19,997 bases of DNA, taken from the UHGV virus genome UHGV-0061455; one strand, 5' to 3'. Position 1 is the first letter of the stretch; the number at the start of each line of letters is the position of its first letter. Positions 6,739 through 19,997 of the stretch are shown here, piece by piece. The notes beneath the pieces are model-generated. The model saw nothing but the letters and a program-made list of their open reading frames with translations, was not told the DNA's origin and searched no databases. A program made the position numbers and the translations under genes. Origin of the DNA: a virus.

Positions 6739-6784
6739 AGCTGCACTGGCAGGGGCAACCCTGCTGGGCGGCAGTATCACTGCT

Positions 6785-7258
6785 GTGATTCAGCATAACG
6801 AGGGGTTGTCCCTGACGGCCTACAAAGATTCAGCCGGTGTACCTACCATCTGTTATGGTGAGACTAAAGGCGTACAGATAGGCCAGAAACGCACGCTAAC
6901 GCAATGTCAGGAGCAACTGATACGTTCGGCAGAGGGGCACGCTAAGGCGCTTGACGGCCTTCCTATGACGCTTACAGACGTACAGTTACTTGGCGCTCTG
7001 GACCTGACCTATAACATCGGTATCTCTGGATTCAAGAACAGTACAGTAAAGCGCAAGCTAATGCAAGGCGATACTAAAGGTGCCGCTCAGGCTGTCTTAG
7101 CGTGGCGCTACATCACCGTTAAAGGTAAGAAGTACGACTGTAGTATAGAAGGTAATAAGGTCTGCTACGGGCTCTGGAAGCGCCGTTTGTGGGAATCCCA
7201 AGCTATTGGCAACGAATTTAAATCAGTGCAAGCAGCATTAGCTGCTATTCCTAAGTAA
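6785..7258 (+). CDS. Endolysin, T4-lysozyme-like muramidase (glycoside hydrolase family 24), probably SAR-type with an N-terminal extension upstream of the listed start
   Basis: EGLSLTAYKDSAGVPTICYGET has the E-x8-D-x5-T catalytic spacing of T4/lambda/P22 lysozymes. The frame is open upstream to 6638 and encodes KVKAALAGATLLGGSITAVI, a Gly/Ala-rich hydrophobic stretch resembling a signal-arrest-release domain, but with no ATG/GTG/TTG in frame. Coordinates given are the conservative GTG start. Confidence 0.8.
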   Translation: MIQHNEGLSLTAYKDSAGVPTICYGETKGVQIGQKRTLTQCQEQLIRSAEGHAKALDGLPMTLTDVQLLGALDLTYNIGISGFKNSTVKRKLMQGDTKGAAQAVLAWRYITVKGKKYDCSIEGNKVCYGLWKRRLWESQAIGNEFKSVQAALAAIPK

Positions 7259-7267
7259 GGATTAGGT

Positions 7268-9013: not shown

Positions 9014-9466
9014 GTAATAAACCTGTGGGTGCCTGAGGGTGCCCTGGGATTTCCTGGGATTGCACGTGTAAACGTACACCTAGAAAATATTATACTCACG
9101 CGAGGCCCTCCCTCACCCGACCAAGGCGTCAATCCCCCCATGGGGTAGGCCTCTGGGAATTCACAGGGTGGGGTAGTGGGAGAGGGTGCTAATCCCTCTG
9201 CGTATACTGTGTGCTGCGCTAGACGCTCTGTATCGCTCTGTATCGCTCTGTATCGCTCTGTGAGTCTATAGCAGTACCTAAGGGACACTTCGTGTCTCTA
9301 CGCTGTACAAGGCAAGCCTCTGTGCTTCTCTGTGCTCTCTCTTATGAGGGCAGGAGGGGGCGCATGCTTGCCTATTTTTATGCACGCTGTGCAGTACTGT
9401 ATGCCGCTGCTATACCTCTGTGTATGCGCAGTAGCTTACCTCTTTTGCCTCTAGGCTATGCAATGC
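9014..9466. other. Non-coding genome-terminus or terminal-repeat-like region
   Basis: About 450 nt with no credible ORF between the last late gene and the first early promoter. Contains tandem short repeats, CTCTGT-type motifs, a CCCCATGGGG palindrome and C-rich/G-rich inverted arms. T7-like genomes have short repeat arrays next to their terminal repeats. Confidence 0.5.
9224..9261. repeat. Tandem repeat, about 3.8 copies of 10-bp unit CGCTCTGTAT
   Basis: Read directly: cgctctgtat cgctctgtat cgctctgtat cgctctgt. Related CTCTGTG motifs recur at about 9318-9345 and 9415. Confidence 0.9.
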
Positions 9467-9495
9467 TTGACGCAGGGTTAGCGCTGTGATATGCT
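9467..9495 (+). promoter_or_regulatory. Candidate sigma70-type early promoter P0 (TTGACG-N17-TATGCT)
   Basis: -35 TTGACG at 9467-9472, 17-nt spacer, -10 TATGCT at 9490-9495; about 100 nt upstream of the first early gene. Weaker -10 than the other promoters. Confidence 0.35.
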
Positions 9496-9601
9496 GATAG
9501 TAGTTGTAAGGTTCTTTAACAATCCGGGGAATCAACGACGCAGTGCAGCGAGTCACTACTCAACACTATATAGTAGGGGATATTGGAATACACTATGAAG
9601 G

Positions 9602-10345
9602 ATGCATACAATGCAAGAACGTAATCTTAAGAAGAGTAGTAAGCGTATAGACGGTAAGGTACGCAGTGGTTGGATAGATGTAGATACAGGGGAGTTCTTC
9701 AACACTAAAGCAGAGGCGAATGTAATGCGTAAGATGCGTAGTGATAAGAAGCCTGTAGCTAGGCGTAATGTAATAGCAGTAGCTGATGCAACGCTTAGAA
9801 TGAAGGATGTAGTGCTAGCTTGGGCATTCAGTAATGATTTCCAGCTTAAACATTACAACTTAATGAATGAGTACATGGAAGGGCGCAGTAAGGGCTATGC
9901 AGGGCTTAAGACTATGCAGCGTGCTGGTACTGTACTGGAAGCAGTTAACGTAGCTACAGCGTGGTACAAGCAGTATGACGCTAGGAAGGATAAACGCTAT
10001 CTGGATGATGCACTCTACACCAATCCTACATGGTGTGAGGATAGGGATTGGGTAGACTCTGAGCCATTGGATGAGCTTAGCTTAGAGATAAATGCATTAC
10101 TGGACTCTAGACATGCTGAGTTCTTAGCGAATGAGCCTAAACCTGAGCTTACTGCTAAGGAGTATGAGCGTAGTATACTCAGTAGGGATAAAGCTACTTA
10201 TATACACAGTAAGGGTGCTGTAACAGTGTATGAGGAGAAGCAGGAGAGTAAGAAAGGTTTAACTGAGCATCAACCTAGATGGTCACAGGATGAGTTGTTT
10301 GATTGGACGCAGCGTAACACTACACAACAATACATTAGGGGATAA
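9602..10345 (+). CDS. Early protein, function unknown
   Basis: 247-aa ORF, visibly more A+T-rich than the late genes. ATG 9611 has better RBS spacing (AAGGA 9 nt upstream) than ATG 9602, so the true start may be 9611. Confidence 0.6.
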   Translation: MHTMQERNLKKSSKRIDGKVRSGWIDVDTGEFFNTKAEANVMRKMRSDKKPVARRNVIAVADATLRMKDVVLAWAFSNDFQLKHYNLMNEYMEGRSKGYAGLKTMQRAGTVLEAVNVATAWYKQYDARKDKRYLDDALYTNPTWCEDRDWVDSEPLDELSLEINALLDSRHAEFLANEPKPELTAKEYERSILSRDKATYIHSKGAVTVYEEKQESKKGLTEHQPRWSQDELFDWTQRNTTQQYIRG

Positions 10346-10355
10346 GAGAATACAC

Positions 10356-10532
10356 ATGACTAAAGCAAACTGGCAGGGCTACAAGACACATGCTGATATG
10401 TGGGAGTTTCATAAGCGTATTAATGAGTATGCGTATCAGCGGTTAAAGGCAGAGCATGAGTTAGCAGAGCTAAGGCTCAAGGCGTACAGGGAGGGTAGTT
10501 TTGAATCTGAAGGGGATTGGAAGAGGTATTAA
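10356..10532 (+). CDS. Hypothetical small early protein
   Basis: 58 aa from ATG 10356 with AAGAG RBS-like sequence; same frame as track ORF 10290-10532, whose 5' part overlaps the upstream gene. Confidence 0.4.
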   Translation: MTKANWQGYKTHADMWEFHKRINEYAYQRLKAEHELAELRLKAYREGSFESEGDWKRY

Positions 10533-10576
10533 TGTGACAGTAACTTACCTCTTTTGAAATTAATTTAAAATAGTTG

Positions 10577-10605
10577 TTGACTTCCCTGATTTAAGCAGTT
10601 ATAGT
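10577..10605 (+). promoter_or_regulatory. Strong sigma70-type early promoter P1 (TTGACT-N17-TATAGT with A+T-rich upstream element)
   Basis: -35 TTGACT 10577-10582, exact 17-nt spacer, -10 TATAGT 10600-10605, preceded by aaattaatttaaaatagttg. Same architecture as P2 and P3a. Confidence 0.7.
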
Positions 10606-10629
10606 TCAAGCATAGTAAGGAGATGCAAA

Positions 10630-10770
10630 GGCAGCTGAAGGGGTAGCGGATAACCAAGACTACCCAGCCTAAAAGGACTTGAAGGACGTCGGTAACTGCA
10701 CCGCCTCTGCATCGAGGGAAGCAATGAGCTGCTAAGAGACAAAAGCAGCGCTAAGATGAATGTTCTTAGT
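10630..10770 (+). ncRNA. Conserved structured leader element, copy R1 of 3
   Basis: Begins about 18 nt after the predicted P1 start site. Conserved blocks GGCAGCTGAAGG, ATAACCAAGAC, AGCCTA-AAGGA, CTAAGAGACAA and GCTAAG are shared with R2 and R3. Hairpin A: GGGTAG (10641-10646) pairs with CTACCC (10660-10665) around a 13-nt loop. Hairpin C: CTAAG (10751-10755) pairs with CTTAG (10765-10769). The shared reading frame is broken by a stop in this copy. Confidence 0.5.
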
Positions 10771-10812
10771 TAAGCGTTACATCCTGTAGCGCATACTTAA
10801 GAGGATTTAAAT

Positions 10813-11127
10813 ATGAAGGCTTTAACTATCGTAATCTCCACGCTACTGATGACTGGATGCGCTACTAAGCAGTACCCACAAGCTACTGACCTTACTTTAC
10901 AGGAGCAGTCAGTGTTTGAATGCAAGGACGTACAGGTAGAATTAGCTAAGGCTTACAGTCAGAAGCTGAAGATTGATGAGACGGCAGGCTTCGATGCCGA
11001 AACTATCAGCGGATTCATGCTGGACTTTGGTATTGGTAATGCAATGGCTAAATCTAAGGCGTACGCTCAGGTTAACGGGCGTATCTCTAAACTGGAAGAA
11101 CTGAAGAAGGTGAGATGCAATGCGTAA
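10813..11127 (+). CDS. Early lipoprotein (signal peptide II with LMTGC lipobox)
   Basis: 104 aa; N-terminus MKALTIVISTLLMTGC is a classical lipoprotein signal. First gene after P1 and R1, with AAGAGG RBS. Confidence 0.7.
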   Translation: MKALTIVISTLLMTGCATKQYPQATDLTLQEQSVFECKDVQVELAKAYSQKLKIDETAGFDAETISGFMLDFGIGNAMAKSKAYAQVNGRISKLEELKKVRCNA

Positions 11128-11371
11128 CTTTAAATCTGAATTAAAAATCTGGTTCTCCGCTGCTGCTGTAGCTACTGCGCTGATGTTCTCCGTTAAGGGC
11201 GCTCAGGCTGCCCCTAACAGCATAGAACTGTGTAATTGGGGTAAGTGGGCGTGGCAGCAGAACATTAAGCTAGACGCGCTTGTAGACGCCTTAAACAGCG
11301 TTGAGGCTATGCCCTACGATGATAAGCTGATTGTTGTGCGCTGCTTTGTTGAATCTATGGAGACTATGTAA
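11120..11371 (+). CDS. Early secreted/periplasmic small protein (Sec signal peptide)
   Basis: 83 aa; N-terminus MRNFKSELKIWFSAAAVATALMFSVKGAQA-AP has a basic n-region, hydrophobic core and AQA cleavage motif. Start overlaps the end of the lipoprotein gene, suggesting translational coupling. Confidence 0.6.
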   Translation: MRNFKSELKIWFSAAAVATALMFSVKGAQAAPNSIELCNWGKWAWQQNIKLDALVDALNSVEAMPYDDKLIVVRCFVESMETM

Positions 11372-11547
11372 TGTTTGATTTAACTACTACGAACGAAGTG
11401 CAGACGATGACTAGCCGTGAGATTGCCGAGTTAACTGGTAAGATGCACACCCATGTAATTGCTGATATTCGTAAGATGCTGGCAGAGATTGGAGGAGAAA
11501 CGAAATTCCGCTCGTCCTACATATCGGCTCAAAATAAATTAAAATAA
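11371..11547 (+). CDS. Short Rha-like protein (phage regulatory protein Rha N-terminal DNA-binding domain only)
   Basis: 58-aa ORF below the track's size cutoff; ATG overlaps the upstream stop (TAATG). TSREIAELTGKMHTHVIADIRKM matches the signature N-terminus of Rha/antirepressor-type proteins. Its last codons are the A+T-rich upstream element of P2. Confidence 0.5.
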   Translation: MFDLTTTNEVQTMTSREIAELTGKMHTHVIADIRKMLAEIGGETKFRSSYISAQNKLK

Positions 11548-11550
11548 GTG

Positions 11551-11579
11551 TTGACGACGTACAGGGAAGTGCGTATAGT
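11551..11579 (+). promoter_or_regulatory. Strong sigma70-type early promoter P2 (TTGACG-N17-TATAGT)
   Basis: -35 TTGACG 11551-11556, 17-nt spacer, -10 TATAGT 11574-11579, preceded by aaaataaattaaaataagtg. Confidence 0.7.
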
Positions 11580-11636
11580 TCATTACATCGGGAGGCGAGA
11601 GGCACTAAGCACCTCCTCCCGGAAAGGAGAAGTTAA

Positions 11637-11775
11637 GGCAGCTGAAGGTAACGATGATAGCCAAGACGTTACAGCCTACAAGGAAGTGAACGAAATCCGA
11701 ACCCTACGGTCCCTGCAATCGGGAGAACTGGATGAGAAGCTAAGAGACAAGAGCTTCGCTAAGTGACTACTTAGT
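11637..11775 (+). ncRNA. Conserved structured leader element, copy R2 of 3
   Basis: Same conserved blocks as R1 and R3. Hairpin A: GTAACG (11648-11653) pairs with CGTTAC (11667-11672) around a 13-nt loop atgatagccaaga. Hairpin C: CTAAG (11759-11763) pairs with CTTAG (11770-11774). The 43 nt between element and ATG, including the AAGAGG RBS, are homologous to those after R1. Confidence 0.5.
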
Positions 11776-11817
11776 TAAGCGTCGTACAGTACGGCGCAGA
11801 ATTAAGAGGTTAAAGAA

Positions 11818-12237
11818 ATGAAAGCTACCCGTTCAAACTGGAAAGAAGCTAAAGGCCTGGTTAAGGTAACAACTAAAAGTATGCCTTGCCTTAAGACAGA
11901 AGCAGCACAAGACGAAGGTGCAGTTGCAATGGAACGTAAGCACGCCATGGAGCTTGCAGCGTACAACTCTGAAGCACGCCGTGCAGAGCTTGTAGAGCTG
12001 GCTAACAAGCCTGAAGGTACTGAAGCACGTAAGGTACTGCGTAAGATGCAGACCTTCACTACTAAGCCTCAGTCAATCCCCAGCAATGATTACAGCATGA
12101 AGCTCAGCCAGCGTCGTGCTAAATCTGAAGAATACAACGAGCGTGGCGAGCGTACTTGCCGCCCTTCAAGCAAGACCTGTCAGCGCATTAACAGTTATTT
12201 CCGCAGTAAGTCCTCTACACCTAAAGGAGTTAAATGA
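11818..12237 (+). CDS. Hypothetical early protein (basic, Lys/Arg-rich)
   Basis: 139-aa ORF with AAGAGG RBS; first gene after P2 and R2. Its first three codons match those of the lipoprotein gene after R1. Confidence 0.6.
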   Translation: MKATRSNWKEAKGLVKVTTKSMPCLKTEAAQDEGAVAMERKHAMELAAYNSEARRAELVELANKPEGTEARKVLRKMQTFTTKPQSIPSNDYSMKLSQRRAKSEEYNERGERTCRPSSKTCQRINSYFRSKSSTPKGVK

Positions 12238-12329
12238 TGGTGGGTCATACTAATCAATCTACTGAATGGGAACGTCAGCGTGAAGCTGAGATGTTTAAAC
12301 TGTATAAGGAGTTAACGAAATGGCACTGA
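12237..12329 (+). CDS. Possible small ORF (30 aa)
   Basis: AAGGAG RBS 7 nt upstream of ATG 12237; overlaps the start of the next gene. Small and unsupported beyond RBS and packing. Confidence 0.25.
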   Translation: MVGHTNQSTEWERQREAEMFKLYKELTKWH

Positions 12330-12643
12330 CCAAAGCCGCAGGCGACGTAGGTACTTATACCACAGCAGAGCAATCCGGTTGTTGTAAGGAAAATACTCAG
12401 TACAACGCCTGGAGGCCTCATTATGGGACACGCCAACCTGTTCCGGATGGGACTATGGTATTTATCCGGTATCGCTACGGGGAGCAGCCGAAGACTAGTG
12501 TAGACGCAAAAAATCGATTGTGGGTTTGGGATGGTACATACTCAGACATCGTGGAGTACAAGATTGACATACAGGAATGCAAGCATGAGCAGGTTGTGTA
12601 CGATGTGGATGACTTCCAGACACGATCGAAATGCGGGCGTTAG
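12320..12643 (+). CDS. Hypothetical early protein
   Basis: 107-aa ORF, AAGGAG RBS 8 nt upstream of ATG. Confidence 0.6.
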   Translation: MALTKAAGDVGTYTTAEQSGCCKENTQYNAWRPHYGTRQPVPDGTMVFIRYRYGEQPKTSVDAKNRLWVWDGTYSDIVEYKIDIQECKHEQVVYDVDDFQTRSKCGR

Positions 12644-12678
12644 CATCAGCAAACTTACTTCTACAAGAGAACGCAGAA

Positions 12679-12807
12679 ATGACACAGCATCAGAAAGCTC
12701 AGCAGTTGGCTAAGAACTACCACACTTTCCTGATTAACAACGAATGCAATGTGCGTTTCGCCTGGAACGCAGCAATGGCCCTTTTCAAACTGGAGATGCA
12801 GAAATGA
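12679..12807 (+). CDS. Possible small ORF (42 aa)
   Basis: ATG 12679; stop overlaps the start of the next gene (ATGA). Fills a gap in a tightly packed early operon. Confidence 0.25.
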   Translation: MTQHQKAQQLAKNYHTFLINNECNVRFAWNAAMALFKLEMQK

Positions 12808-12980
12808 TTAACCTGAACCCTGAACTGATTCTGATGCGTAATGATGAAGTAACTGTTGAGACGCTAGCCAAAGAATATGACGCTAGAGAACAGTTGATTG
12901 AGTACTACAAAGGTAAAGCTGAACGTGTAGGCCTCAGCTTCGAAAGCTACATTAAACGCTTCGGCATTACCTTACGCTAA
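12804..12980 (+). CDS. Hypothetical small early protein
   Basis: 58 aa from ATG 12804 with GGAG upstream; same frame as track ORF 12744-12980, whose upstream part lacks an RBS. Confidence 0.45.
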   Translation: MINLNPELILMRNDEVTVETLAKEYDAREQLIEYYKGKAERVGLSFESYIKRFGITLR

Positions 12981-12990
12981 GGGGGCAGAC

Positions 12991-13320
12991 ATGTTGCCAG
13001 TAAATGAAGTAATTGAACAGTACTGGCAGATGCTGGAGAATCAAAGCAGCTTAGGCCGTAAGACACTGCGAGATATTCCAGCAGAGCTACGCAAGCTTTG
13101 CCCTTTGAAGTGGTGTACTGATTGGCAGTACCGTGAAGGAATGCGCTTGCTGGTAGGTTATTACAAGTACGACGCTGAGAGGGCCTCAGAGGTCCTACAG
13201 CGTATGGAATTCGATGTAGTAAGAGAGTTGCAGCAGCTTGGATATGAAGGCGCTAAGCAGGCGTTTAAGGCTGCTTGCATTAATCATTATGAATGGCAGA
13301 CATCTTACAGAGGTATCTAA
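12991..13320 (+). CDS. Hypothetical early protein
   Basis: 109-aa ORF, AAGGGGG RBS. Confidence 0.6.
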   Translation: MLPVNEVIEQYWQMLENQSSLGRKTLRDIPAELRKLCPLKWCTDWQYREGMRLLVGYYKYDAERASEVLQRMEFDVVRELQQLGYEGAKQAFKAACINHYEWQTSYRGI

Positions 13321-13526
13321 TGAAAGTAAAAGCTATTAAAATTGAAGACTCGTCGGCTTTAGATTACCTGACTGAAGGTAAACTCTATGAGGTCGTATAT
13401 TGCTCCAATCGGAAATTTGGTGATTTAGTCCTAGATATAATTGACGATTTAGGCGAGATGATATCAATACTAGTTAGTGATGGGCCAAGCTGTGCTCACG
13501 GTGTTAAATGGGAGATTGTGGAATGA
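13320..13526 (+). CDS. Hypothetical small protein
   Basis: 68 aa from ATG 13320, which overlaps the upstream stop; same frame as track ORF 13293-13526. Confidence 0.45.
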   Translation: MKVKAIKIEDSSALDYLTEGKLYEVVYCSNRKFGDLVLDIIDDLGEMISILVSDGPSCAHGVKWEIVE

Positions 13527-13768
13527 ACTTCGTAGAACACAACCTAAAGATTTCAGATATAAAGTCTCAGAACTCGGCTATCTATAGGCTTGACCAGATG
13601 CATGGGGACAGTACTAATCCTAACGTAAGTACTGTATTCGTAACTAATGATGATATGCTGGAGCTAGTTGAATTATGGCTGAAGAACTGTGGCTACGGCG
13701 AGCGAGACAGTTGGGTGTTGGACAGACTGAAAGGTTTAGGTGTTGTGGTAGAACAGCAGCAGCTGTAA
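13523..13768 (+). CDS. Hypothetical small protein
   Basis: 81 aa from ATG 13523 (GTGGAATGA overlap with upstream stop). The 3' end overlaps the predicted primase start by about 94 nt, so one of the two boundaries is uncertain. Confidence 0.4.
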   Translation: MNFVEHNLKISDIKSQNSAIYRLDQMHGDSTNPNVSTVFVTNDDMLELVELWLKNCGYGERDSWVLDRLKGLGVVVEQQQL

Positions 13769-14463
13769 TAAGAAACGAGCCAGATAAATGGACATGCTCT
13801 TGCTTTAGATGTAAAGGTTATCACGTGGAGCGTAAGCAGTACGCTCAATTAGTAGTACCTGAAGTACTGGGGCGTGAGTTGCCCGCCCCTCAGGACCTGA
13901 AGCGCCTGCCGGAACTGGATGCAGGGCTTCAGCAGTTCCTTTACGGATTCTTAATATCAAAAGGTATCTGGCCTGATATGGCTGGAGATGTTTATTACTC
14001 AGAACAATACAAGAGGTTAGTGTGGAAATTATCAACGGGCAGTTACATAGCGAGAGCATTGCACGAGTACCAGTTTCCGAAGTGGGTGATGCTGGGGAAG
14101 TCGTTACAATGGGCGCAGCTTGGGAATACTGGAACGATAACAGTACTGACAGAGGATTATCTCTCGGCGCTGAAGGTTCAGCAGGTCTCGGAGAAGTATT
14201 CTTCACAGACTGTTACGGCAATAGCATTACTGGGGACTCGCTTAGCTCTTGGGCTTAAGGCTCAGCTGATACGAGAAGGGAAGCCTATAGTGTGCATGTT
14301 GGACGGAGACAAGGCAGGTTACGCTGGAACTGTTCAAATTCACAAACAGTTACGTCCATTTTTAAGGGTAGGCGACTTCCACATTGATGGGCTAGACCCC
14401 AAGGACATGAAGTGTAGTCAAATAATAGAAGGTATAGCAGATGAATTGGGAAGAGTATTATAA
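13675..14463 (+). CDS. DNA primase (zinc-binding region plus TOPRIM domain; T7 gp4 primase-like, separate from the helicase)
   Basis: 262 aa. Cys cluster RFRCCGRTAAAVIRNEPDKWTCSCFRC near the N-terminus; VCMLDGDKAGYAGT resembles the TOPRIM acidic motif (T7 MFDMDEAGRKA). Start is uncertain because of the upstream overlap. Confidence 0.65.
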   Translation: MAEELWLRRARQLGVGQTERFRCCGRTAAAVIRNEPDKWTCSCFRCKGYHVERKQYAQLVVPEVLGRELPAPQDLKRLPELDAGLQQFLYGFLISKGIWPDMAGDVYYSEQYKRLVWKLSTGSYIARALHEYQFPKWVMLGKSLQWAQLGNTGTITVLTEDYLSALKVQQVSEKYSSQTVTAIALLGTRLALGLKAQLIREGKPIVCMLDGDKAGYAGTVQIHKQLRPFLRVGDFHIDGLDPKDMKCSQIIEGIADELGRVL

Positions 14464-14586
14464 GTACGATGAAGAGGTTCCCTCAGGACTTGTTAGAATC
14501 AAAGCTGTAAAGGGTACTAGAGTGGGTACAGAAGACTAAGGTTGAGTTACATGGTGAATTTGCCAACTTAAAGTAAGGGGCATTGA

Positions 14587-15861
14587 ATGGATTTTGTAAT
14601 AGCTAGGGCTATGTGTGAACGTAAGGTGCATGACCGCTTACGGGACAGTATCCCTAAGTCACTGCTTGCGCCGGATACGGTAGCACTGCTAGGATGGATT
14701 GAACTGTATTATGCAACCTACCCTGACTCTAACGAAGTACGCTTTGATGTAATGGATACGCTCCTTAATATGCGTGGGGCGCATTTACAGAAGGAGCAGA
14801 TGGATATCCTTAAGCATATGCTTAAGACCGTTCAGGGCGTTCCTGATGAGGCGGTAGCTGGTACAGTGCGTACGCTGAACGAGCTGGCCTACTCGGGTGA
14901 GATGGCTGCACTGGTCAGTAAGTATCAGGCTGGGGAAGAGATTGACTTTGTACAGGAAGCTAAAGCGCTTGAGCGCAAGTACTCAGGCGTAGCAGCAGCC
15001 AATGATTCACTACTTAAGTGGGAAGATGGGGGTGTAGACGATATTCTCGCGGCTACTGATGAGTCTGGTGGTCTTAAGCTTACTGTGTTCAGTGAGTTGG
15101 CTAGAAACATTCGCGGCTTACGGGGTGGTGATTGTGTTGCTGTTGCTGCCCCTGTTGATGCTGGTAAAACTTCTCTCCTAGCTGCTATAGTAGTTAACCT
15201 AGCGGAACAGATGCATGAGCAGAAGGAGATTTACGCAGAGCGTCCTATCCTGTGGTTGGTGAACGAGTCATTGGCCAAGCGCACTGTACCGCGCATCTAT
15301 CAAGCAGCTACTGGACTTACCTTGCAGCAGATTGTTGAGCAGCATAAAGAAGGTAAGTTTGCTGATAAGTACCTGAAGAAGGTTGGGACTTGGGATAAGA
15401 TTCGCGTTAAGGATGCGCACAGTATGAGCCTAGGTCAAATCTCTACGCTATTGGAAGAGATGCGTCCGGCTGTGCTGGTGATTGACATGGTCGCTAATAT
15501 AAAGGGAGGTAATGCCGAGTCAGAGTATCAGGCATTGGAACAGAAGTGGCAGCAGCTGCGTATGCTGGGATGTGAATATGATTGCGTTATCTTAGGTACG
15601 ATTCAGTTATCTGTTGAAGGTTACGATTGCATGTACCCGCCGCTGACAGCATTGAAAGGAAGTAAGATAGGTGTTCAAGGTGCTTTGGACTTATGCATCA
15701 TGATGGGACGTATGAATGTTAACGATCGTCCTGACATGGCTAACGTACGCGGGATTAGTACACCTAAGAATAAGTTAGGTAAGTCTGGTAGTACTGCATA
15801 TGTGCAGTTCCAAGTGGAGTTTAACGGCGGTACGTGCCAATTCAGTGAAGGTCTAGCGTAA
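14587..15861 (+). CDS. Replicative DNA helicase (DnaB/gp4B-like)
   Basis: 424 aa; AAGGGG RBS. Walker A-like AAPVDAGKTS, Walker B-like hydrophobic stretch ending in D (AVLVIDMVA), and position directly after the primase. Confidence 0.8.
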   Translation: MDFVIARAMCERKVHDRLRDSIPKSLLAPDTVALLGWIELYYATYPDSNEVRFDVMDTLLNMRGAHLQKEQMDILKHMLKTVQGVPDEAVAGTVRTLNELAYSGEMAALVSKYQAGEEIDFVQEAKALERKYSGVAAANDSLLKWEDGGVDDILAATDESGGLKLTVFSELARNIRGLRGGDCVAVAAPVDAGKTSLLAAIVVNLAEQMHEQKEIYAERPILWLVNESLAKRTVPRIYQAATGLTLQQIVEQHKEGKFADKYLKKVGTWDKIRVKDAHSMSLGQISTLLEEMRPAVLVIDMVANIKGGNAESEYQALEQKWQQLRMLGCEYDCVILGTIQLSVEGYDCMYPPLTALKGSKIGVQGALDLCIMMGRMNVNDRPDMANVRGISTPKNKLGKSGSTAYVQFQVEFNGGTCQFSEGLA

Positions 15862-15916
15862 TAGCTAAGCCGTCTTCTTAGGAGGGCGGCTTGTCAATTA
15901 ACTAGGAGGATATTAA

Positions 15917-16381
15917 ATGAGCACTTGCATAGATCATGGTAAGTGTAAAAGCTTATCACCTGAAGGGTATTTATTAGTTACACGTCCTGAGTATTTCAGC
16001 AGAGGTTGTAAGACTAGAAGCATTGCTAAGCATAGGCTAGTACTTCTTACAAAGCTGGGTATAAACTGGTGGGATGAAGAGGCTAAGGATTTAGTAGCGC
16101 TCCACACTTGCGATAATCCTAGATGTATTAATCCCGAGCATCTGGTAGCAGGAACCCGTGGGGACAATAACAGAGATAGGGCAGAAAGAGGGAGAAGTGC
16201 TAAGAAGGTTCCTAGTAAGTGGAAGCTTACCCCTACTGATTGCAAAGCTATAATTAACTCTTATAACAAGAAAGATAGGGAGAATAACAAAAGCGCCTTA
16301 TCAGCACGTTTCAAAGTAGACCGTAAGATAATCACTCAAGTTTTAGAAGGAACATATAGTGGCCTCGATTTTAATCTTTGA
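15917..16381 (+). CDS. HNH homing endonuclease
   Basis: 154 aa; GGAGG RBS. HTCDNPRCINPEHLVAGTRGDNNRD matches the HNH_3-type motif. Gene is visibly more A+T-rich than the flanking helicase and polymerase genes. Confidence 0.8.
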   Translation: MSTCIDHGKCKSLSPEGYLLVTRPEYFSRGCKTRSIAKHRLVLLTKLGINWWDEEAKDLVALHTCDNPRCINPEHLVAGTRGDNNRDRAERGRSAKKVPSKWKLTPTDCKAIINSYNKKDRENNKSALSARFKVDRKIITQVLEGTYSGLDFNL

Positions 16382-17504
16382 TATTGAAACTCAAAACGTG
16401 CCTTACTTTGGAGGGGTAGCTACTCCGTACTGCCCTGAGAACTACATCGTAGAATCAGGGTTCAGGATTGATAGAACTAATCCAGATGGTACAGTAACGT
16501 GCAGTGATGTAGGCAGCGTACGTTATGAATCAAGAGAAGAGTTCTTGCAGGCAGACCCTAAGCAGTGGTTACCTATTCAGGAAGATACATGGTTAATCGT
16601 GGCCCATAACGCTGCGTATGAGATTAGCTGGGCACTGACGTTTGCTAGGGAAGAGTTTGAGGCATTCCTGAAAAGAGGTGGACGTGTATTTGATACAATG
16701 CAGGGGCAATACATCGCCTCTGACTTCCAAGACCTTTACCCGTCACTGGATGAGACGGCCCCCAAGTATGGTGGCAGTCACAAGGTTGATGGTGTTAAGC
16801 TGCTGTGGCAGCAGGGAGTATTAACAGCAGATATTGACCCAGTACTACTGCATGAGTACCTAACAGGGCCGGAAGGAGACATCGTCAATACTGCACTGTG
16901 CTTCTACGGGCAATGTGCATTGTTCGCTGAGCGTGGGCAGATGCCTATGGTCTGGGAAAGGATGGATAGTGTAGTAGCCCTAGCCTACTGTGAGTTTAAT
17001 GGTGTGTACGTAGACATGCCTACAGCCAGAGCTAACCAGAAGGAGCAGGAGGACGCTATCGCAGTACTGAAGCAGACTCTGCAAGGCTTCTTGCCGGAAC
17101 TACCTGAAGGCTTTGAGTTCAACTGGAACAGTGGATACCACATGTCCGCACTGGTGTATGGCGGTATGGTTAAGTACAAGTGCAAGGTCCCGTATGACCC
17201 GCCGAAGTATGTGAAGAAGGAAGTGCAGGATGGGGTATATAAGTCAGGCCGTAACAAGGGCATGCCTAAGTACATTAAAGTAGACACAGACGAGCAGGCT
17301 ATGAAGTGGGGCGAGCGTTTGTATAAGTTCGAAGGACTTGTATGTATTAAGGACCTGCCGGCAGTACTACAAGAGAAGTATGCGGAGCGAGGAGAGTTCC
17401 GAGGTGCTCAGACATTAGCAGACGGTACAGCTGTATTCAGTACAGGTACGGATGCTATGAAAGAACTGGCTAACTATTTTATTGGGATTGAAGACGATGA
17501 GTAA
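16359..17504 (+). CDS. DNA polymerase (family A), N-terminal fragment with 3'-5' exonuclease domain
   Basis: 381 aa from GTG 16359 (GAAGGA RBS 7 nt upstream), overlapping the HNH gene end. Exo I motif ILIFDIETQ and Exo II VAHNAAYEISWAL align with T7 gp5 (IVSDIEANA, VFHNGHKYDVPAL). ORF stops where the methyltransferase gene begins. Confidence 0.8.
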   Translation: MASILIFDIETQNVPYFGGVATPYCPENYIVESGFRIDRTNPDGTVTCSDVGSVRYESREEFLQADPKQWLPIQEDTWLIVAHNAAYEISWALTFAREEFEAFLKRGGRVFDTMQGQYIASDFQDLYPSLDETAPKYGGSHKVDGVKLLWQQGVLTADIDPVLLHEYLTGPEGDIVNTALCFYGQCALFAERGQMPMVWERMDSVVALAYCEFNGVYVDMPTARANQKEQEDAIAVLKQTLQGFLPELPEGFEFNWNSGYHMSALVYGGMVKYKCKVPYDPPKYVKKEVQDGVYKSGRNKGMPKYIKVDTDEQAMKWGERLYKFEGLVCIKDLPAVLQEKYAERGEFRGAQTLADGTAVFSTGTDAMKELANYFIGIEDDE

Positions 17505-18204
17505 TTTTATAAACATTATGCACGGTGACTGTCTGGAGTTGATGAAGGAAATTCCAGCTAAAAGTGTAGATATGGTACTTTGCGACTTACCTTATGGGAC
17601 TACTCAATGTAAATGGGATGTGATTATAGATTTTAAAATGTTATGGGAAAACTACGGTAGGGTAGTTAAGGATACGGGCGCTATAGTCCTAACGGCGGCG
17701 CAGCCGTTCACAAGTACGCTGGTAGTAAGTAATATTAAGAACTTCAAATATCAATGGGTTTGGAAGAAATCAAGACCTACAGGACATCTTAATGCTAAGA
17801 AGCAACCGTTACGGAACACTGAAGACATTCTCGTCTTCTATAAGTCGCAGTGTACGTATAATCCTCAAGGTACACGAGAAACAGACGTCATGGTGTCACG
17901 TACAAACAGGGGCAATTACGGGGAATGTTCAAAAACCACACGGCAGACGGTAACCGGTTACCCTACTACGATTCTGGAATTTGCATCTGAAGTAGGGGAA
18001 CACCCAACACAAAAGCCAGTCGCACTTATGGAGTATCTAATTCGTACATATACAAACGAAGGTGATACTGTTCTAGACAATTGCATGGGCAGTGGTACTA
18101 CGGGGGTAGCAGCTAAGAATACACTCCGTAATTTTATAGGTATCGAAAAGGATGCTACATACTACGATATAGCATTCAATCGCATTCATAATTCAAACGT
18201 GTAA
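17497..18204 (+). CDS. DNA methyltransferase (N6-adenine/N4-cytosine, beta-class)
   Basis: 235 aa from ATG 17497 (overlaps the Pol-N stop). N-terminus MSNFINIMHGDCLELMKEIPAKSVDMVLCDLPYG carries a DLPY variant of motif IV (DPPY). HPTQKP and DNCMGSGTTGVAAK...NFIGIEKD (motif I) are family signatures. Visibly A+T-rich versus neighbours. Confidence 0.85.
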   Translation: MSNFINIMHGDCLELMKEIPAKSVDMVLCDLPYGTTQCKWDVIIDFKMLWENYGRVVKDTGAIVLTAAQPFTSTLVVSNIKNFKYQWVWKKSRPTGHLNAKKQPLRNTEDILVFYKSQCTYNPQGTRETDVMVSRTNRGNYGECSKTTRQTVTGYPTTILEFASEVGEHPTQKPVALMEYLIRTYTNEGDTVLDNCMGSGTTGVAAKNTLRNFIGIEKDATYYDIAFNRIHNSNV

Positions 18205-18211
18205 GGTATGT

Positions 18212-19363
18212 ATGACTACTCAAGCGTCTTCATTCTTTAAAGCATACAACGAACTAACCCTGCGCCAGAAGGACTTAGGCTTCTATGAGGTTAAGGACTA
18301 CAACAAGGATGGTAGCCTGCGTAAGACTACGGGGATGCTTCCTTATGTAATACCTCAGAAGGAAGACGGTAGTGGCATCATTCATCACCGCCTGAATCAC
18401 TGTTCAACTACAACCGGGAGGCTGTCAGCGTCTAACCCGAATATGCAGCAGCTGCCGCGTGAGTCTAAGGTTAAGCAGATTCTTCGCAGTCGCTATGGTG
18501 AGCAGGGCATGATTGCACAGTGCGACTACTCAGCTATGGAAGTTGTAATGGGCTGTGTAATTACCGGTGATAAGAAGCTCCTGTCCCTGCTTGAAGATGG
18601 TACAGACATGCACTGCTACCGCTTAGCATTCCAAGAGGGTATGCCATATGAAGAAGTCTACGAGCTTTGCCATAACCCGGATGCACTGAACCATAAAGAA
18701 TGGAAGAAGAAACGAACAGCAATCAAAACGTTCAGCTTCGCAGCGCAGTACGGAGCTTCCGCTAAAGGATTGGCGTTCGCCTCTGGTGCCAGCCTGAAGG
18801 ATGCTGAGAAGTTCTTAGCTAACGAAGAAGCCCTGTTCCCTGAGTCTATTAAGTATCGCGATGTAATCGCAGCAGAAGTAAACCGCACTGCATTACTGGA
18901 ACCTATCCGTCGTGAGCAGTCAGATGACGGTAGCTGGCGTATCTACCGTGAGGGATACTTCACTGCACCTTGCGGTACTCGCTACCGCTTCCGTCAGAAA
19001 CCTGTGTGGCGTGAAGGGAAGCAGGTCATGGACTTCAAGCCTACAGAGATGGCGAACTATCCGTTTCAGGGCTCAGGTTCCCTGCTTATGCTGATTGCGA
19101 TGGGTATGATTCTGCGTGCAGGGTTAGCGGATAACTGGATGGACGGTAAGTGGTGCATCCTTGCCACTGTGCATGATGCCGTCTATGCAGATTGTGCAGA
19201 CGAAGAGACAGCTAATAAGGTAGGGCAACTTATCAAGCGCTGTATGGAAGGGGCACGCGACCGTATGCTAGCACTGTGGCCTGAGTTTGGTATCCTTAAA
19301 GATGTAAAGTTCCCAGCAGAAGCCGGGCTTGGTAAATCCTTCAAGGAAGAGTACACGATTTAA
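18212..19363 (+). CDS. DNA polymerase (family A), C-terminal fragment with polymerase domain
   Basis: 383 aa. TTTGRLSASNPNMQQLP (O-helix-preceding motif), DYSAMEV (motif A), RTAIKTFSFAAQYGAS (motif B) and VHDAV (motif C) match Pol I/T7 gp5. Confidence 0.85.
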   Translation: MTTQASSFFKAYNELTLRQKDLGFYEVKDYNKDGSLRKTTGMLPYVIPQKEDGSGIIHHRLNHCSTTTGRLSASNPNMQQLPRESKVKQILRSRYGEQGMIAQCDYSAMEVVMGCVITGDKKLLSLLEDGTDMHCYRLAFQEGMPYEEVYELCHNPDALNHKEWKKKRTAIKTFSFAAQYGASAKGLAFASGASLKDAEKFLANEEALFPESIKYRDVIAAEVNRTALLEPIRREQSDDGSWRIYREGYFTAPCGTRYRFRQKPVWREGKQVMDFKPTEMANYPFQGSGSLLMLIAMGMILRAGLADNWMDGKWCILATVHDAVYADCADEETANKVGQLIKRCMEGARDRMLALWPEFGILKDVKFPAEAGLGKSFKEEYTI

Positions 19364-19375
19364 TTAAATTAGTTG

Positions 19376-19404
19376 TTGACATGGCAAGGACGCCTAGGTA
19401 TAGT
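19376..19404 (+). promoter_or_regulatory. Strong sigma70-type promoter P3a (TTGACA-N17-TATAGT)
   Basis: -35 TTGACA 19376-19381, 17-nt spacer, -10 TATAGT 19399-19404, preceded by taattaaattagttg; immediately after the DNA polymerase stop. Confidence 0.7.
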
Positions 19405-19491
19405 AAGCACATCAACGAGGCACGGAGCCTACCAGAAACGGTCAGTAGACGCAGCGTCATACGAAGAGCTGATAAGTTGATAAGAAACAGA

Positions 19492-19520
19492 TTGACAGGC
19501 AGTAACGAAGTAGATAATAT
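19492..19520 (+). promoter_or_regulatory. Candidate tandem promoter P3b (TTGACA-N17-TAATAT)
   Basis: -35 TTGACA 19492-19497, 17-nt spacer, -10 TAATAT 19515-19520. Predicted start lies about 15 nt upstream of R3, matching the P1-to-R1 spacing. Confidence 0.4.
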
Positions 19521-19541
19521 ACACATCAAGGAAGCAGTACT

Positions 19542-19682
19542 GGCAACTGAAGGTAGCGCTGATAACCAAGACGCTATAGCCAACAAGGAAGTGAACGCCC
19601 TCGGCTACGTCGCCGTCCCTGTATCGGGAGAAGACATGAGAGTCTAGGAGAAATAAGACTCGCTAACTGAAGTAGAGTTAGT
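19542..19682 (+). ncRNA. Conserved structured leader element, copy R3 of 3
   Basis: Same conserved blocks (GGCAACTGAAGG, ATAACCAAGAC, AGCCAACAAGGAAGTGAACG). Hairpin A: GTAGCG (19553-19558) pairs with CGCTAT (19572-19577, one G-U) around a 13-nt loop. Hairpin C: CTAAC (19663-19667) pairs with GTTAG (19677-19681), a compensatory change relative to R1 and R2. Confidence 0.5.
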
Positions 19683-19742
19683 GATGCAGTCTTAAGAGAT
19701 TGCAACCTTAACTTTATTCACAGTATTAACAGGAGGTAGTAA

Positions 19743-19925
19743 ATGCGCGTACGTATTCTTAATCACAATGCTTATGGCCCTTTCCTCACTGATGCAGATA
19801 AGAGGATGTATGCAGTAGGTACAGTTCATGAGGTAGTAAACTTCTACCCTGATACCGGGGAGGTAGACTTGGGAGATAGAGAGGTTAGCTTCGCCCCGGC
19901 AGAGTATGAGGTAGTAGAGGAGTAG
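19743..19925 (+). CDS. Hypothetical small protein
   Basis: 60-aa ORF with AGGAGG RBS 6 nt upstream; first gene after P3 and R3. Confidence 0.55.
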   Translation: MRVRILNHNAYGPFLTDADKRMYAVGTVHEVVNFYPDTGEVDLGDREVSFAPAEYEVVEE

Positions 19926-19997
19926 GTGTAGCCCTGCGTAGGAAGGGTTTTATTATACCACTTAACGCTCAATTTGTACAGCAATAAATTGATATTT

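What the first reader, a model, noticed from the sequence alone, without database searches (positions are those of the whole stretch)
15917..18204. HNH endonuclease and methyltransferase flank the polymerase exonuclease fragment
Two A+T-rich, apparently acquired genes, an HNH homing endonuclease (15917-16381) and a methyltransferase (17497-18204), bracket the Pol-N ORF. They may be independent selfish insertions. Alternatively the methyltransferase could protect phage DNA from the co-resident HNH nuclease or from host restriction, in the manner of a restriction-modification pair. The DLPY variant of the usual DPPY motif IV is also notable.
Basis: inference. Interest (0 to 1): 0.45.

Follow-up and report, generated by a model that had tools for sequence, protein, structure and literature searches.

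The report
Selfish nuclease and methylase inside split polymerase
In this T7-like gut coliphage, a homing nuclease gene and a borrowed DNA methylase gene were inserted separately at the start codons of the two halves of a naturally split DNA polymerase; they are not a restriction-modification pair.

Summary
Window 15917-16381 encodes a His-Me/HNH endonuclease. Window 17497-18204 encodes an intact beta-class DNA methyltransferase (MTase). Both are about 41% G+C against 48-50% in their neighbours, and they bracket the N-terminal polymerase ORF (Pol-N).

The restriction-modification (R-M) reading is not supported. A contig with the identical MTase lacks the HNH. HNH orthologues occur at the same place in phages without the MTase. 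The HNH matches no restriction-enzyme model.

The HNH is a free-standing homing endonuclease. It sits exactly on the Pol-N start codon and is absent from a genome that is 99.4% identical elsewhere.

The MTase lies in a polymerase split that already existed. About 54 Cepavirus-like Pol-N clusters carry a break in a predicted helix-loop-helix, most likely the thumb, and most sampled genomes have no gene in it. Three outgroup lineages hold a different HNH at this site. Two lineages hold unrelated small ORFs. One nested lineage has re-fused the gene. The nearest relative of the window lineage has an empty split, so the MTase is a recent gain. Its closest DNA relative is in Salmonella Felixounavirus phages.

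DLPY is the majority form of motif IV in this MTase subfamily (67 of 120 homologues).

No group I intron or intein was found in the window. The MTase target sequence and the HNH cleavage site remain undetermined.

The parts
14441..14539 (+). 32-aa remnant of a second HNH_3 endonuclease gene, between primase and helicase. It lies outside the finding but is part of the same pattern.
   Evidence: Sister contigs L009 and L010 carry an intact 156-aa HNH_3 gene here. The window has an internal deletion of about 335 nt.
15867..15909 (+). Conserved hairpin (15867-15892) followed by TCAATTAACTAGGAGG, the Shine-Dalgarno region that originally served the polymerase and is now used by the HNH ORF.
   Evidence: Window 15859-15910 is 94% identical to PAS7 over 52 nt. 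The same element precedes the polymerase ATG in HNH-less L010 and in ECO104.
15917..16381 (+). Free-standing His-Me/HNH homing endonuclease gene, inserted on the start codon of the polymerase.
   Evidence: Family matches: Pfam PF05551 at 27.8 bits and PHROG 6254 at 8e-20. About 442-444 nt (15924/15926-16367) are absent from L010, which is 99.4% identical downstream. The protein is 60% identical (4e-63) to the HNH at the same position in L068.
16359..17504 (+). Pol-N: 3'-5' exonuclease domain plus the N-terminal part of the polymerase domain. It restarts at a GTG inside the 3' end of the HNH ORF.
   Evidence: PHROG 9556 at 2.5e-106. It is collinear with residues 1 to about 371 of the one-piece KP34 and KKP 3828 polymerases. 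HNH-less L010 starts ATGAGCAGCATT; the window has GTGGCCTCGATT.
17472..17504 (+). Clade-specific 10-aa Pol-N tail NYFIGIEDDE plus stop. The stop overlaps the next ATG as ATGAGTAA. This is the 'scar' that defines the split.
   Evidence: The tail is absent from about 45 unsplit relatives, which have 15 nt in frame here. Empty-split genomes have 46 nt and a +1 frame change. All 54 split Pol-N clusters at 70% identity or more end (N/H/D)YF(I/M)xxE....
17497..18204 (+). Orphan beta-class (N6-adenine-type) DNA methyltransferase, translationally coupled to Pol-N. It is cargo in the polymerase split.
   Evidence: Family matches: PF01555 at 2e-29 and PADLOC MTase_II at 8.7e-85. Nearest solved structures are CcrM (6pbd, 3.6e-20) and DpnA-like (5hfj). 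DNA is 85.6% identical over 477 nt to Felixounavirus SP4/SEP1. dN/dS against homologues is about 0.1-0.18.
17584..17595 (+). Motif IV, DLPY (residues 30-33).
   Evidence: Read directly from the sequence. Counts among 120 homologues: 67 DLPY, 36 DPPY, 9 DVPY, 6 DPPF.
18212..19363 (+). Pol-C: rest of the polymerase domain, with a re-created start (ATG ACT ACT) 7 nt after the MTase stop and AAGG as its Shine-Dalgarno sequence.
   Evidence: PF00476 at 4.5e-31 and PHROG 17 at 8e-81. It is collinear with the C-terminal half of one-piece homologues. The SASNP|NMQQLP site is uninterrupted here.

Best explanation
The window comes from a Cepavirus-like (Slopekvirinae, T7 supergroup) coliphage. Its family A DNA polymerase is naturally encoded as two polypeptides. 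The break falls in the loop of a predicted helical hairpin, most likely the tip of the thumb. Two unrelated acquired genes sit at the start codons of the two halves.

(1) The HNH. A free-standing His-Me/HNH homing endonuclease has landed exactly on the Pol-N start. It uses the polymerase's ribosome-binding site and its ATG-AGC. It carries a replacement SD and GTG start for Pol-N in its own 3' end. It most likely spreads by cutting HNH-less genomes near the polymerase start during co-infection and being copied in by repair. The re-coded first polymerase codons would protect its own genome.

(2) The MTase. An orphan beta-class amino-methyltransferase, probably N6-adenine-specific, was captured from the enterobacterial phage gene pool. 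It was inserted after codon 3 of the resident Pol-C, so it inherited the ATGAGTAA stop-start coupling to Pol-N. Pol-C received a duplicated, diverged start. The MTase is therefore co-transcribed with, and translationally coupled to, the replication genes. Its likely role is to methylate phage DNA as it is replicated, protecting it from host restriction.

The two genes are independent of each other. The split itself predates the MTase. It was probably created by a different HNH_3 homing endonuclease that still occupies this site in outgroup lineages, and it now serves as a re-usable slot for cargo genes.

Shown here: gene identities, insertion borders, independent distribution, the pre-existing split, and the alternative cargos. 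Inferred: homing activity and target, MTase activity and specificity, the protective role, and a homing-endonuclease origin for the empty split.
For: Identities.

The HNH behaves as a mobile insertion.
- L010 lacks window 15924/15926-16367 and starts the polymerase with ATGAGCAGCATTCTAATC behind the same SD. The window has GTGGCCTCGATTTTAATC.
- The same HNH family (60% identity, 4e-63) lies immediately upstream of, and overlapping, the polymerase start in L068. The L068 polymerase is only 66% identical, and the HNH N-terminus there (MTTSIMHID) duplicates the polymerase N-terminus.
- Homologues lie next to or overlapping the polymerase gene in Acinetobacter, Klebsiella, Pectobacterium and Vibrio podophages.

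The split predates the MTase.
- PAS7 and P64441 are annotated with two polymerase CDSs overlapping by 8 nt and no insert.
- PAS7 is an isolated, plaque-forming phage (PMC11522302).
- 54 Pol-N clusters end with the same tail.
- Empty splits were also seen in L015, L017, L066/67 and L070.
- On an NJ tree the window lineage is sister to empty-split P0124/P0125.

The split is a slot used by different genes.
- HNH_3 in L068, L071 and L072.
- A 65-70-aa ORF in ECO104 and a different 65-aa ORF in L073.
- The MTase in the window lineage only.
- A re-fused gene in P0158, nested inside the split clade.

The MTase looks intact and foreign.
- G+C is 41%.
- DNA is 85.6% identical to Felixounavirus over 477 nt.
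- Homologues occur in over 1200 unrelated phage records.
- Motifs IV, I and FIGIE are present, and DLPY is the subfamily norm.
- dN/dS is about 0.1-0.18.
- Its three extra N-terminal codons, ATG AGT AAT, are the Pol-C start of empty-split relatives.

No RNA element was found. There is no Rfam hit at E<=1 in 15800-18400. The same search detects the group I intron in ECO104 (51 bits, 6.4e-11).

Location of the break. In the AlphaFold2 model of the fused homologue P0158, the break falls in loop 377-381 between helices 364-376 and 382-400. The model's best PDB matches are family A polymerases.
Against: - No enzymatic activity, cleavage site or methylation motif is known for either protein.
- The HNH scores only just above the PF05551 cut-off and below the HNH_3 cut-off.
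- Whether the changed first polymerase codons really destroy a homing site is untested.
- The divergent tract between the window and L010 lies mainly in the 5' half of the helicase (63 mismatches in 750 nt), not next to this HNH. Co-conversion is therefore not demonstrated.
- The origin of the empty split from HNH loss rests on outgroup comparison and an NJ tree only. The scar has no significant similarity to the site-A HNH.
- The thumb-tip assignment comes from a medium-confidence model (pLDDT about 70-77 locally) and from positional offset to Taq, not from a residue-level superposition.
Confidence: 0.8

Rival explanations
1. R-M-like pair. The MTase protects phage DNA from the co-resident HNH nuclease, so the two genes form a functional or addictive module.
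For: The two genes are close together, 1.1 kb apart on the same strand and in the same transcription unit. Both are foreign by composition.
Against: - L010 carries the identical MTase without the HNH.
- An HNH orthologue in L068 and homologues in other genera are not accompanied by an MTase in the loci inspected.
- The MTase family is found in over 1200 phage records in unrelated contexts.
- The HNH has no PADLOC restriction-enzyme match.
- The HNH-bearing allele differs from the empty allele at the insertion site. That is the usual way a homing endonuclease spares its own genome.
Confidence: 0.04
2. The MTase, or an earlier copy of it, is what originally split the polymerase. On this view the 10-aa Pol-N tail NYFIGIEDDE is a fossil of the MTase motif (R)NFIGIE(K)D, and the empty splits are MTase deletions.
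For: The tail aligns to the MTase motif with a BLOSUM62 score of 30-40, and shuffle p is about 0.001-0.05. It shows no significant similarity to the site-A HNH. FIGIE/FIGME is the hallmark C-terminal motif of this MTase family.
Against: - The match is a short, post-hoc motif. An unrelated RNAP window scores 38 against the tail's 40.
- The G is not conserved among tails (FIEVE, FIRIE, FIRME).
- The fossil lies upstream of an intact MTase, so this view needs two acquisitions or a tandem donor, and no such donor was seen.
- Only the window lineage has the MTase, and its sister lineages are empty.
- Outgroup lineages have an HNH at this site, not an MTase.
Confidence: 0.08
3. The MTase is carried by a self-splicing intron or an intein, so a full-length polymerase is restored at the RNA or protein level.
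For: Related polymerase genes do carry group I introns with HNH ORFs at two other sites. One is in ECO104 at SASNP|NMQQLP (51 bits). The others are in L068 and L065 at PPSFA|AQYG (31-39 bits, below the gathering score).
Against: - There is no Rfam match at E<=1 in 15800-18400 and none at gathering score in the whole window.
- Only 7 nt separate the MTase stop from the Pol-C ATG, and the MTase ATG overlaps the Pol-N stop. No room is left for a ribozyme core.
- There is no Hint/intein domain in Pol-N, the MTase or Pol-C.
- Empty-split relatives have just 46 nt at the junction.
Confidence: 0.02
4. The MTase is a structural or functional subunit of the two-piece polymerase, for example bridging the halves or methylating DNA at the fork as part of the replisome.
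For: It is translationally coupled between the two halves (ATGAGTAA overlap and a 7-nt spacer), which would favour co-ordinated synthesis of the three proteins.
Against: Most genomes sampled from the clade, including the cultured phages PAS7 and P64441, have the split without any MTase. Other lineages hold unrelated small ORFs or an HNH in the same slot.
Confidence: 0.04

Closest known systems
Free-standing (intronless) homing endonucleases of phages, such as the T4 seg/mob genes and the HNH gp2.8/gp7.7-type genes of T7-like phages (from general knowledge; PAS7's HNH CDSs are annotated 'Gp2.8/Gp7.7')
   Same: A small His-Me/HNH ORF wedged between essential genes. It varies in presence between near-identical genomes, keeps a fixed insertion site across divergent phages, and the occupied allele is re-coded at the junction.
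   Different: Here the ORF sits exactly on the polymerase start codon. It takes over the polymerase's SD and ATG and carries a replacement GTG start for the polymerase. Cleavage and homing have not been shown.
Split DNA polymerase genes in phages: the family B gp43 of Aeromonas T4-like phages, split by a mobile endonuclease (general knowledge), and family A split polymerases of T7-like cyanophages and OM43 phages MEP401/402, which have a small ORF inserted (10.1101/325100; PMC10580990)
   Same: An essential replicative polymerase is encoded as two collinear ORFs, in some cases with an unrelated ORF between them (e.g. MEP401/402). The state is conserved in a clade, which includes cultured phages.
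   Different: This split is in Cepavirus-like coliphages, in a predicted thumb hairpin loop. The same site holds at least four kinds of occupant (HNH_3, MTase, two small ORFs), is empty in most genomes, and has been re-fused in one lineage. The PAS7 paper does not mention the polymerase at all.
Orphan phage DNA methyltransferases of the beta class (PF01555; relatives of CcrM, DpnA/M2.DpnII, M.RsrI and M.MboIIA)
   Same: Size, motif order (IV near the N-terminus; FxGxG and FIGIE near the C-terminus), no cognate restriction enzyme, and wide scattering among unrelated phages.
   Different: Motif IV is DLPY, the subfamily's majority form, rather than DPPY. The location between the two halves of a polymerase gene was not seen in any other phage examined. 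The target sequence is unknown.
Group I intron with an HNH ORF in DNA polymerase genes of T7-like phages (Bonocora and Shub 2004, from general knowledge; Rfam RF00028)
   Same: The same gene is invaded in close relatives: ECO104 at SASNP|NMQQLP (51 bits), and L068 and L065 at PPSFA|AQYG.
   Different: The window has no intron at either site and no ribozyme around the HNH or the MTase.

Membership tests
His-Me finger / HNH homing endonuclease | beta-beta-alpha-Me nuclease motif with a catalytic His and a conserved Asn | tested here: met
   PF05551 scores 27.8 bits against a cut-off of 27. HNH_3 scores 22.5, below its cut-off of 24.8. PHROG 6254 matches at 8e-20. H63 and N84 are invariant in an alignment with 8 phage HNH proteins, within the HTCDNPRCINPEHL...GDNN region.
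His-Me finger / HNH homing endonuclease | Presence/absence polymorphism at one fixed site in otherwise homologous genomes | tested here: met
   L010 lacks the gene and is 99.4% identical downstream. A 60%-identical orthologue lies immediately upstream of, and overlapping, the polymerase start in L068.
His-Me finger / HNH homing endonuclease | Cuts the endonuclease-less allele near the insertion site, while its own allele is resistant | not testable with these tools
   Only indirect evidence is available. The first polymerase codons are re-coded (ATGAGCAGC to GTGGCCTCG) and the fifth codon has a CTA to TTA change.
Beta-class amino (N6A/N4C) DNA methyltransferase, PF01555 | Circularly permuted motif order: catalytic motif IV at the N-terminus and the AdoMet motif I (FxGxG) near the C-terminus | tested here: met
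   DLPY lies at residues 30-33. DNCMGSGTTG and NFIGIE lie near the C-terminus. The Pfam match is full length (profile 1-220 of 221, 2e-29).
Beta-class amino (N6A/N4C) DNA methyltransferase, PF01555 | Motif IV (D/N/S)PP(Y/F) | tested here: inconclusive
   The first Pro is Leu (DLPY). Among 120 homologues the counts are 67 DLPY, 36 DPPY, 9 DVPY and 6 DPPF, so the variant is conserved and presumably active. dN/dS is about 0.1-0.18. Activity was not measured.
Type II restriction-modification system | The MTase is paired with a cognate restriction endonuclease, and the two are inherited together | tested here: not met
   The HNH has no PADLOC restriction-enzyme match. The two genes occur independently of each other. 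They are separated by Pol-N.
Type II restriction-modification system | Nuclease and MTase recognise the same sequence, and methylation blocks cleavage | not testable with these tools
   Neither target is known.
Group I intron-encoded ORF | A ribozyme core (P3-P9) flanks the ORF | tested here: not met
   No Rfam match at E<=1 in 15800-18400. As a positive control, the ECO104 intron scores 51 bits.
Intein | An in-frame Hint domain with splice-junction residues | tested here: not met
   No Hint/intein Pfam hit in Pol-N, the MTase or Pol-C. The ORFs are separated by stop codons and a frame change.
Naturally split family A DNA polymerase | Two ORFs collinear with a one-piece homologue, and the split conserved in a clade that includes viable phages | tested here: met
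   Collinear alignment with the KP34 and KKP 3828 polymerases. 54 split Pol-N clusters. PAS7 forms plaques.
Naturally split family A DNA polymerase | The two polypeptides assemble into an active polymerase | not testable with these tools
   Inferred from viability only.

The most novel reading that the evidence does not exclude
The break in the thumb hairpin of the Cepavirus-type DNA polymerase is a scar left by a homing endonuclease, and it has become a re-usable, translationally coupled expression slot. Incoming genes insert at the ATGAGTAA stop-start overlap, duplicate it, and are then made in step with the replisome. So far the occupants are an HNH_3, a DNA methyltransferase and two unrelated small ORFs. 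The polymerase works as a two-chain enzyme and can even re-fuse, as in P0158. The methyltransferase would then be a replication-coupled anti-restriction device.
Probability: 0.45. Interest if true: 0.5.

Novelty: new variant of a known kind. Interest (0 to 1): 0.4.

Why it matters
- It removes a tempting but unsupported reading, that a phage-borne nuclease and methylase form an R-M pair.
- It shows, with natural presence/absence variants, how selfish and accessory genes enter a compact T7-like genome. They land on the start codons of essential genes and carry a replacement start with them.
- It documents a naturally two-piece T7-family DNA polymerase in cultured coliphages (PAS7, P64441). The break lies where, from general knowledge, T7 gp5 carries its thioredoxin-binding loop. 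The break tolerates four kinds of cargo and can reverse. This is useful for polymerase engineering (split sites) and for studying how essential genes survive invasion by homing endonucleases.
- The MTase is a candidate anti-restriction gene, which matters for host-range prediction in phage therapy against STEC-type E. coli.

Tried and rejected
- Intron hypothesis for the MTase or HNH. Rfam at gathering score on the whole window and at E<=1 on 15800-18400 found nothing.
- Intein. No Hint domain was found.
- 'FIGIE fossil' idea, that the Pol-N tail is an MTase remnant. The match is nominally significant, but an unrelated RNAP window scores almost as high, the G is not conserved, and no tandem-MTase donor was found. 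I kept it only as a low-probability rival (contexts).
- The tail as a remnant of the site-A HNH. Not significant, p 0.26-0.97.
- ECO104's small ORF as a decayed MTase. There is no internal DNA similarity; only about 12 nt on the left flank and about 18 nt on the right flank are alike.
- Co-conversion tract next to the HNH. The window versus L010 divergence is concentrated in the 5' half of the helicase, plus a small cluster at 16371-16499. This is a mosaic, not a clean gradient, so I make no claim.
- Inferring the MTase target. The T1 region I fetched (20000-36000) has no annotated MTase gene. Literature searches for DLPY and DLPYG returned nothing relevant. GATC is almost absent from the genome (7 sites), so a Dam-like role would have few substrates, but this does not identify the target.
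- A metagenome scan for more split-clade loci mostly returned unsplit relatives. The protein-cluster search was far more productive.
Full report
**1. What is there**

The right-hand third of the window is the replication module of a T7-supergroup podophage. All genes are on the + strand.

| Gene | Window coordinates |
|---|---|
| Primase | 13675-14463 |
| DnaB-like helicase | 14587-15861 |
| 154-aa His-Me/HNH protein | 15917-16381 |
| N-terminal half of a family A DNA polymerase (Pol-N) | 16359-17504 |
| 235-aa PF01555 DNA methyltransferase (MTase) | 17497-18204 |
| C-terminal half of the polymerase (Pol-C) | 18212-19363 |

An RNA polymerase-sized ORF lies at 325-3030. The domain matches are strong for the MTase: Pfam 2e-29, PHROG 2e-75 and PADLOC MTase_II 8.7e-85. 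They are adequate for the HNH: PF05551 scores 27.8 bits against a cut-off of 27, and PHROG 6254 matches at 8e-20. The two genes are 40.6% and 41.1% G+C, against 48-50% for the flanking replication genes.

**2. Where the window comes from**

The window is the metagenome contig ERZ1310330 NODE_1251. Its nearest database relatives are 80-87% identical at the DNA level:
- Escherichia phages vB_EcoP_PAS7 and vB_EcoP_P64441, both Slopekvirinae;
- the ECO104 4-5-2 group.

PAS7 is an isolated, plaque-forming phage and the type of the proposed genus Cepavirus. Its paper does not mention the polymerase (PMC11522302).

**3. The HNH gene**

Contigs carrying a 100% identical MTase differ in their HNH content.
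- L009 has an HNH before the helicase and another before Pol-N.
- L010 has only the one before the helicase.
- The window has only the one before Pol-N, plus a 32-aa remnant (14441-14539) of the other.

Against L010, the window carries an extra 442-444 nt (15924/15926-16367). The rest of the polymerase region is 99.4% identical.

In L010 the conserved hairpin and SD (TCAATTAACTAGGAGG) are followed directly by the polymerase start, ATG AGC AGC ATT CTA ATC. In the window the same SD and ATG-AGC open the HNH ORF. The polymerase restarts at GTG 16359 (GTG GCC TCG ATT TTA ATC), behind a GAAGGA sequence that lies inside the 3' end of the HNH ORF. So the insertion sits exactly on the polymerase start codon and brings a replacement start with it.

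The same HNH family (60% identity, E 4e-63) lies immediately upstream of, and overlapping, the polymerase start in L068. The L068 polymerase is only 66% identical, and the HNH N-terminus there (MTTSIMHID) is a copy of the polymerase N-terminus. Homologues about 50% identical lie next to or overlapping the polymerase gene in Klebsiella, Pectobacterium, Vibrio and Acinetobacter podophages.

This is the signature of a free-standing homing endonuclease tied to one homing site. PAS7 and P64441 carry a different HNH (33-34% identity) at a different spot, between the helicase and the hairpin. ECO104 has none in this interval. Cleavage itself is inferred, not shown.

**4. The polymerase is split, with or without the MTase**

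One-piece polymerases of KP34 and KKP 3828 (57-62% identity) read ...STSxDAMxxLA-xQGFEF... straight across the junction. About 45 further relatives also have 15 in-frame nucleotides there.

In PAS7, P64441, L015, L017, L066/67 and L070 the junction is 46 nt long, with a +1 frame change. Pol-N gains a 10-aa tail, (N/H)YFIG(I/M/V)E..., and stops in ATGAGTAA or ATGGCTAA, which contains the Pol-C start codon. Fifty-four Pol-N clusters at 70-100% identity end with this tail.

In the window, 708 nt of MTase ORF separate the halves, so no frameshift or read-through could join them there. PAS7 is viable. The enzyme must therefore work as two chains. This last step is inference.

An AlphaFold2 model of the fused homologue P0158 has a mean pLDDT of 75.6, and about 70-77 around the junction. 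It places the junction in loop 377-381 between helices 364-376 and 382-400. That is about 50 residues upstream of the HHRLN...TGRLS...NxQ motif, which aligns to Taq residue 556 onward. The model's best PDB matches are phiVC8 DpoZ and T7 gp5. I read this as the tip of the thumb. That is a positional inference, not a residue-level superposition.

**5. The split is an insertion slot**

| Lineage | Content of the split |
|---|---|
| L068, L071, L072 (53-66% identical Pol-N) | A free-standing 153-155-aa HNH_3 gene overlapping both halves. It is unrelated to the window's HNH (E = 28). |
| ECO104 | A 65-70-aa ORF with no PHROG match |
| L073 | A different 65-aa ORF |
| Window lineage | The MTase |
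| P0158 | None; 4 nt shorter at the junction and reads through (...ELADYFISMGKDDHASGFFKAY...) |

On an NJ tree P0158 is nested within the split clade, so it is most simply a secondary re-fusion. The window lineage is sister to empty-split P0124/P0125. The HNH-occupied P0188 and P0236 are sister to the whole tail-bearing clade.

The most economical history has three steps: an HNH_3 homing endonuclease split the gene, it was lost leaving a 31-nt scar that preserved a coupled stop-start, and the scar later accepted other genes. The first two steps are inferred. The scar has no significant similarity to the HNH.

Each cargo starts at the ATG of the overlap and is followed by a second, diverged copy of the Pol-C start:

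| Lineage | Left junction (cargo start) | Right junction (re-created Pol-C start) |
|---|---|---|
| Window | ATGAGTAAT | ATGACTACT |
| ECO104 | ATGAGTAAG | ATGACTAAG |
| L073 | ATGATTGA | ATGAGTAAC |

**6. The MTase**

It is a full-length beta-class enzyme. DLPY is at residues 30-33. HPTQKP, DNCMGSGTTG and NFIGIE follow in the C-terminal part. The nearest solved relatives are the N6-adenine enzymes CcrM (3.6e-20), a DpnA-like enzyme, M.MboIIA and M.RsrI. N4-cytosine enzymes score lower.

DLPY is the commonest form among the 120 best homologues: 67 DLPY, 36 DPPY, 9 DVPY and 6 DPPF. Comparisons with homologues give dN/dS of about 0.1-0.18, with dS near saturation. Nothing suggests the enzyme is inactive.

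Homologues are scattered across unrelated phages:
- Felixounavirus SP4/SEP1, 85.6% DNA identity over 477 nt, where the gene is annotated in two pieces;
- the Escherichia siphophage OzMSK (several of its genes are annotated by similarity to T1);
- Xanthomonas PhiXhv-18, where it lies between the helicase and the polymerase;
- siphovirus-like contigs.

Only the window lineage (P0001, six contigs from four or more datasets) has it inside the polymerase gene. Compared with homologues, the window protein has three extra N-terminal codons, ATG AGT AAT. These are the Pol-C start (MSN...) of empty-split relatives. The MTase body was therefore joined in frame after codon 3 of Pol-C. No promoter-like or terminator-like site above background separates it from the polymerase halves. 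It should be expressed with them.

**7. The R-M idea**

The evidence against it:
- The two genes vary independently. L010 has the MTase without the HNH. L068 and the loci inspected in other genera have the HNH without the MTase.
- The HNH matches no restriction-enzyme model.
- The HNH-bearing allele is already altered at the insertion site.
- The MTase family is a common orphan in phages.

A chance overlap of target sequences cannot be excluded computationally, but there is no evidence for a functional pairing.

**8. Comparison with what is known**

Free-standing HNH homing endonucleases, orphan phage MTases, intron-invaded polymerase genes and split phage polymerases are all known kinds (general knowledge). 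The following features are not described in the papers I could find:
- this particular split in a coliphage genus;
- its use by at least four different cargos, and its reversal in one lineage;
- a DNA methyltransferase placed between the two halves of a replicative polymerase.

**9. Unexplained**

- The Pol-N tail resembles the MTase FIGIE motif (shuffle p about 0.001-0.05). The evidence is too thin to build on.
- The window MTase and the ECO104 small ORF share their first seven codons approximately (MSNFINI against MSKFQDI) and share a TAAGG...ATGACTA right flank. This hints that one cargo replaced another by recombination in the flanks.

**10. Verdict**

The 'independent insertions' reading is supported and the R-M reading is not. 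The more interesting feature is the pre-existing, re-usable split in the polymerase in which the MTase sits. Interest is moderate.

Noticed in passing
window 1-19997: GATC is almost absent: 7 sites against 54-70 expected. One of the 7 lies in the acquired HNH gene (15932) and none in the MTase. GANTC is not depleted (67 observed against about 60 expected).
   Followed up: partly
window 14441-14539: A 32-aa ORF is the remnant of a 156-aa HNH_3 endonuclease gene that is intact between primase and helicase in sister contigs L009 and L010. The window has an internal deletion of about 335 nt.
   Followed up: yes
L003 (ECO104 4-5-2) 3356-4042: A group I intron (RF00028, 51 bits, E 6.4e-11) with a 180-aa HNH ORF interrupts the polymerase at SASNP|NMQQLP. 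The window is uninterrupted at this site.
   Followed up: yes
L068 5593-6194; L065 1706-2330: A third interruption site in related polymerases lies at PPSFA|AQYG (motif B region). It has sub-threshold group I intron matches (31-39 bits) and HNH ORFs. Many Slopekvirinae Pol-N-type proteins of 551-580 aa end exactly here.
   Followed up: partly
L065 (P0158) 75-1742: This polymerase is nested within the split clade yet reads through the split (...ELADYFISMGKDDHASGFFKAY...). Its junction is 4 nt shorter, an apparent natural re-fusion of a split gene.
   Followed up: partly
window 17472-17501: The Pol-N tail NYFIGIEDDE resembles the MTase motif NFIGIEKD (shuffle p about 0.001). An unrelated RNAP window scores nearly as high, and the G varies among relatives.
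   Followed up: partly
window 14497-15247 and 16371-16499, compared with L010: Divergence between otherwise 99.4-99.5% identical contigs is concentrated in the 5' half of the helicase (63 mismatches in 750 nt) and in the first 130 nt or so of Pol-N (8 mismatches). This is a recombination mosaic near the two HNH sites.
   Followed up: partly
L006 (Salmonella phage SP4) 2471-3173: The closest DNA relative of the MTase is annotated there as two overlapping CDSs. This is either a frameshift or a sequencing error at a run of A.
   Followed up: no
search hits H2-H4: Records named 'Listeria phage LM 4-11-1', 'Listeria phage LM 4-14-1' and 'Salmonella phage S.Kent 1-2-1' gave the same coverage, identity and bit score against the query as Escherichia phage ECO104 4-5-2 across this region. 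The ECO104 4-5-2 record is flagged UNVERIFIED_ORG. The host labels look unreliable.
   Followed up: no
window 17130-17340 (Pol-N residues about 258-327): The AlphaFold2 model of the homologue predicts a four-stranded beta insertion (residues 269-324) just before the thumb hairpin. Its length varies among relatives: PAS7-type Pol-N proteins are 404 aa and KP34 has a longer insert.
   Followed up: no
L072 5823-6374: A gene with a PF26128 (Gad2) domain lies directly after the polymerase in one HNH-occupied relative.
   Followed up: no
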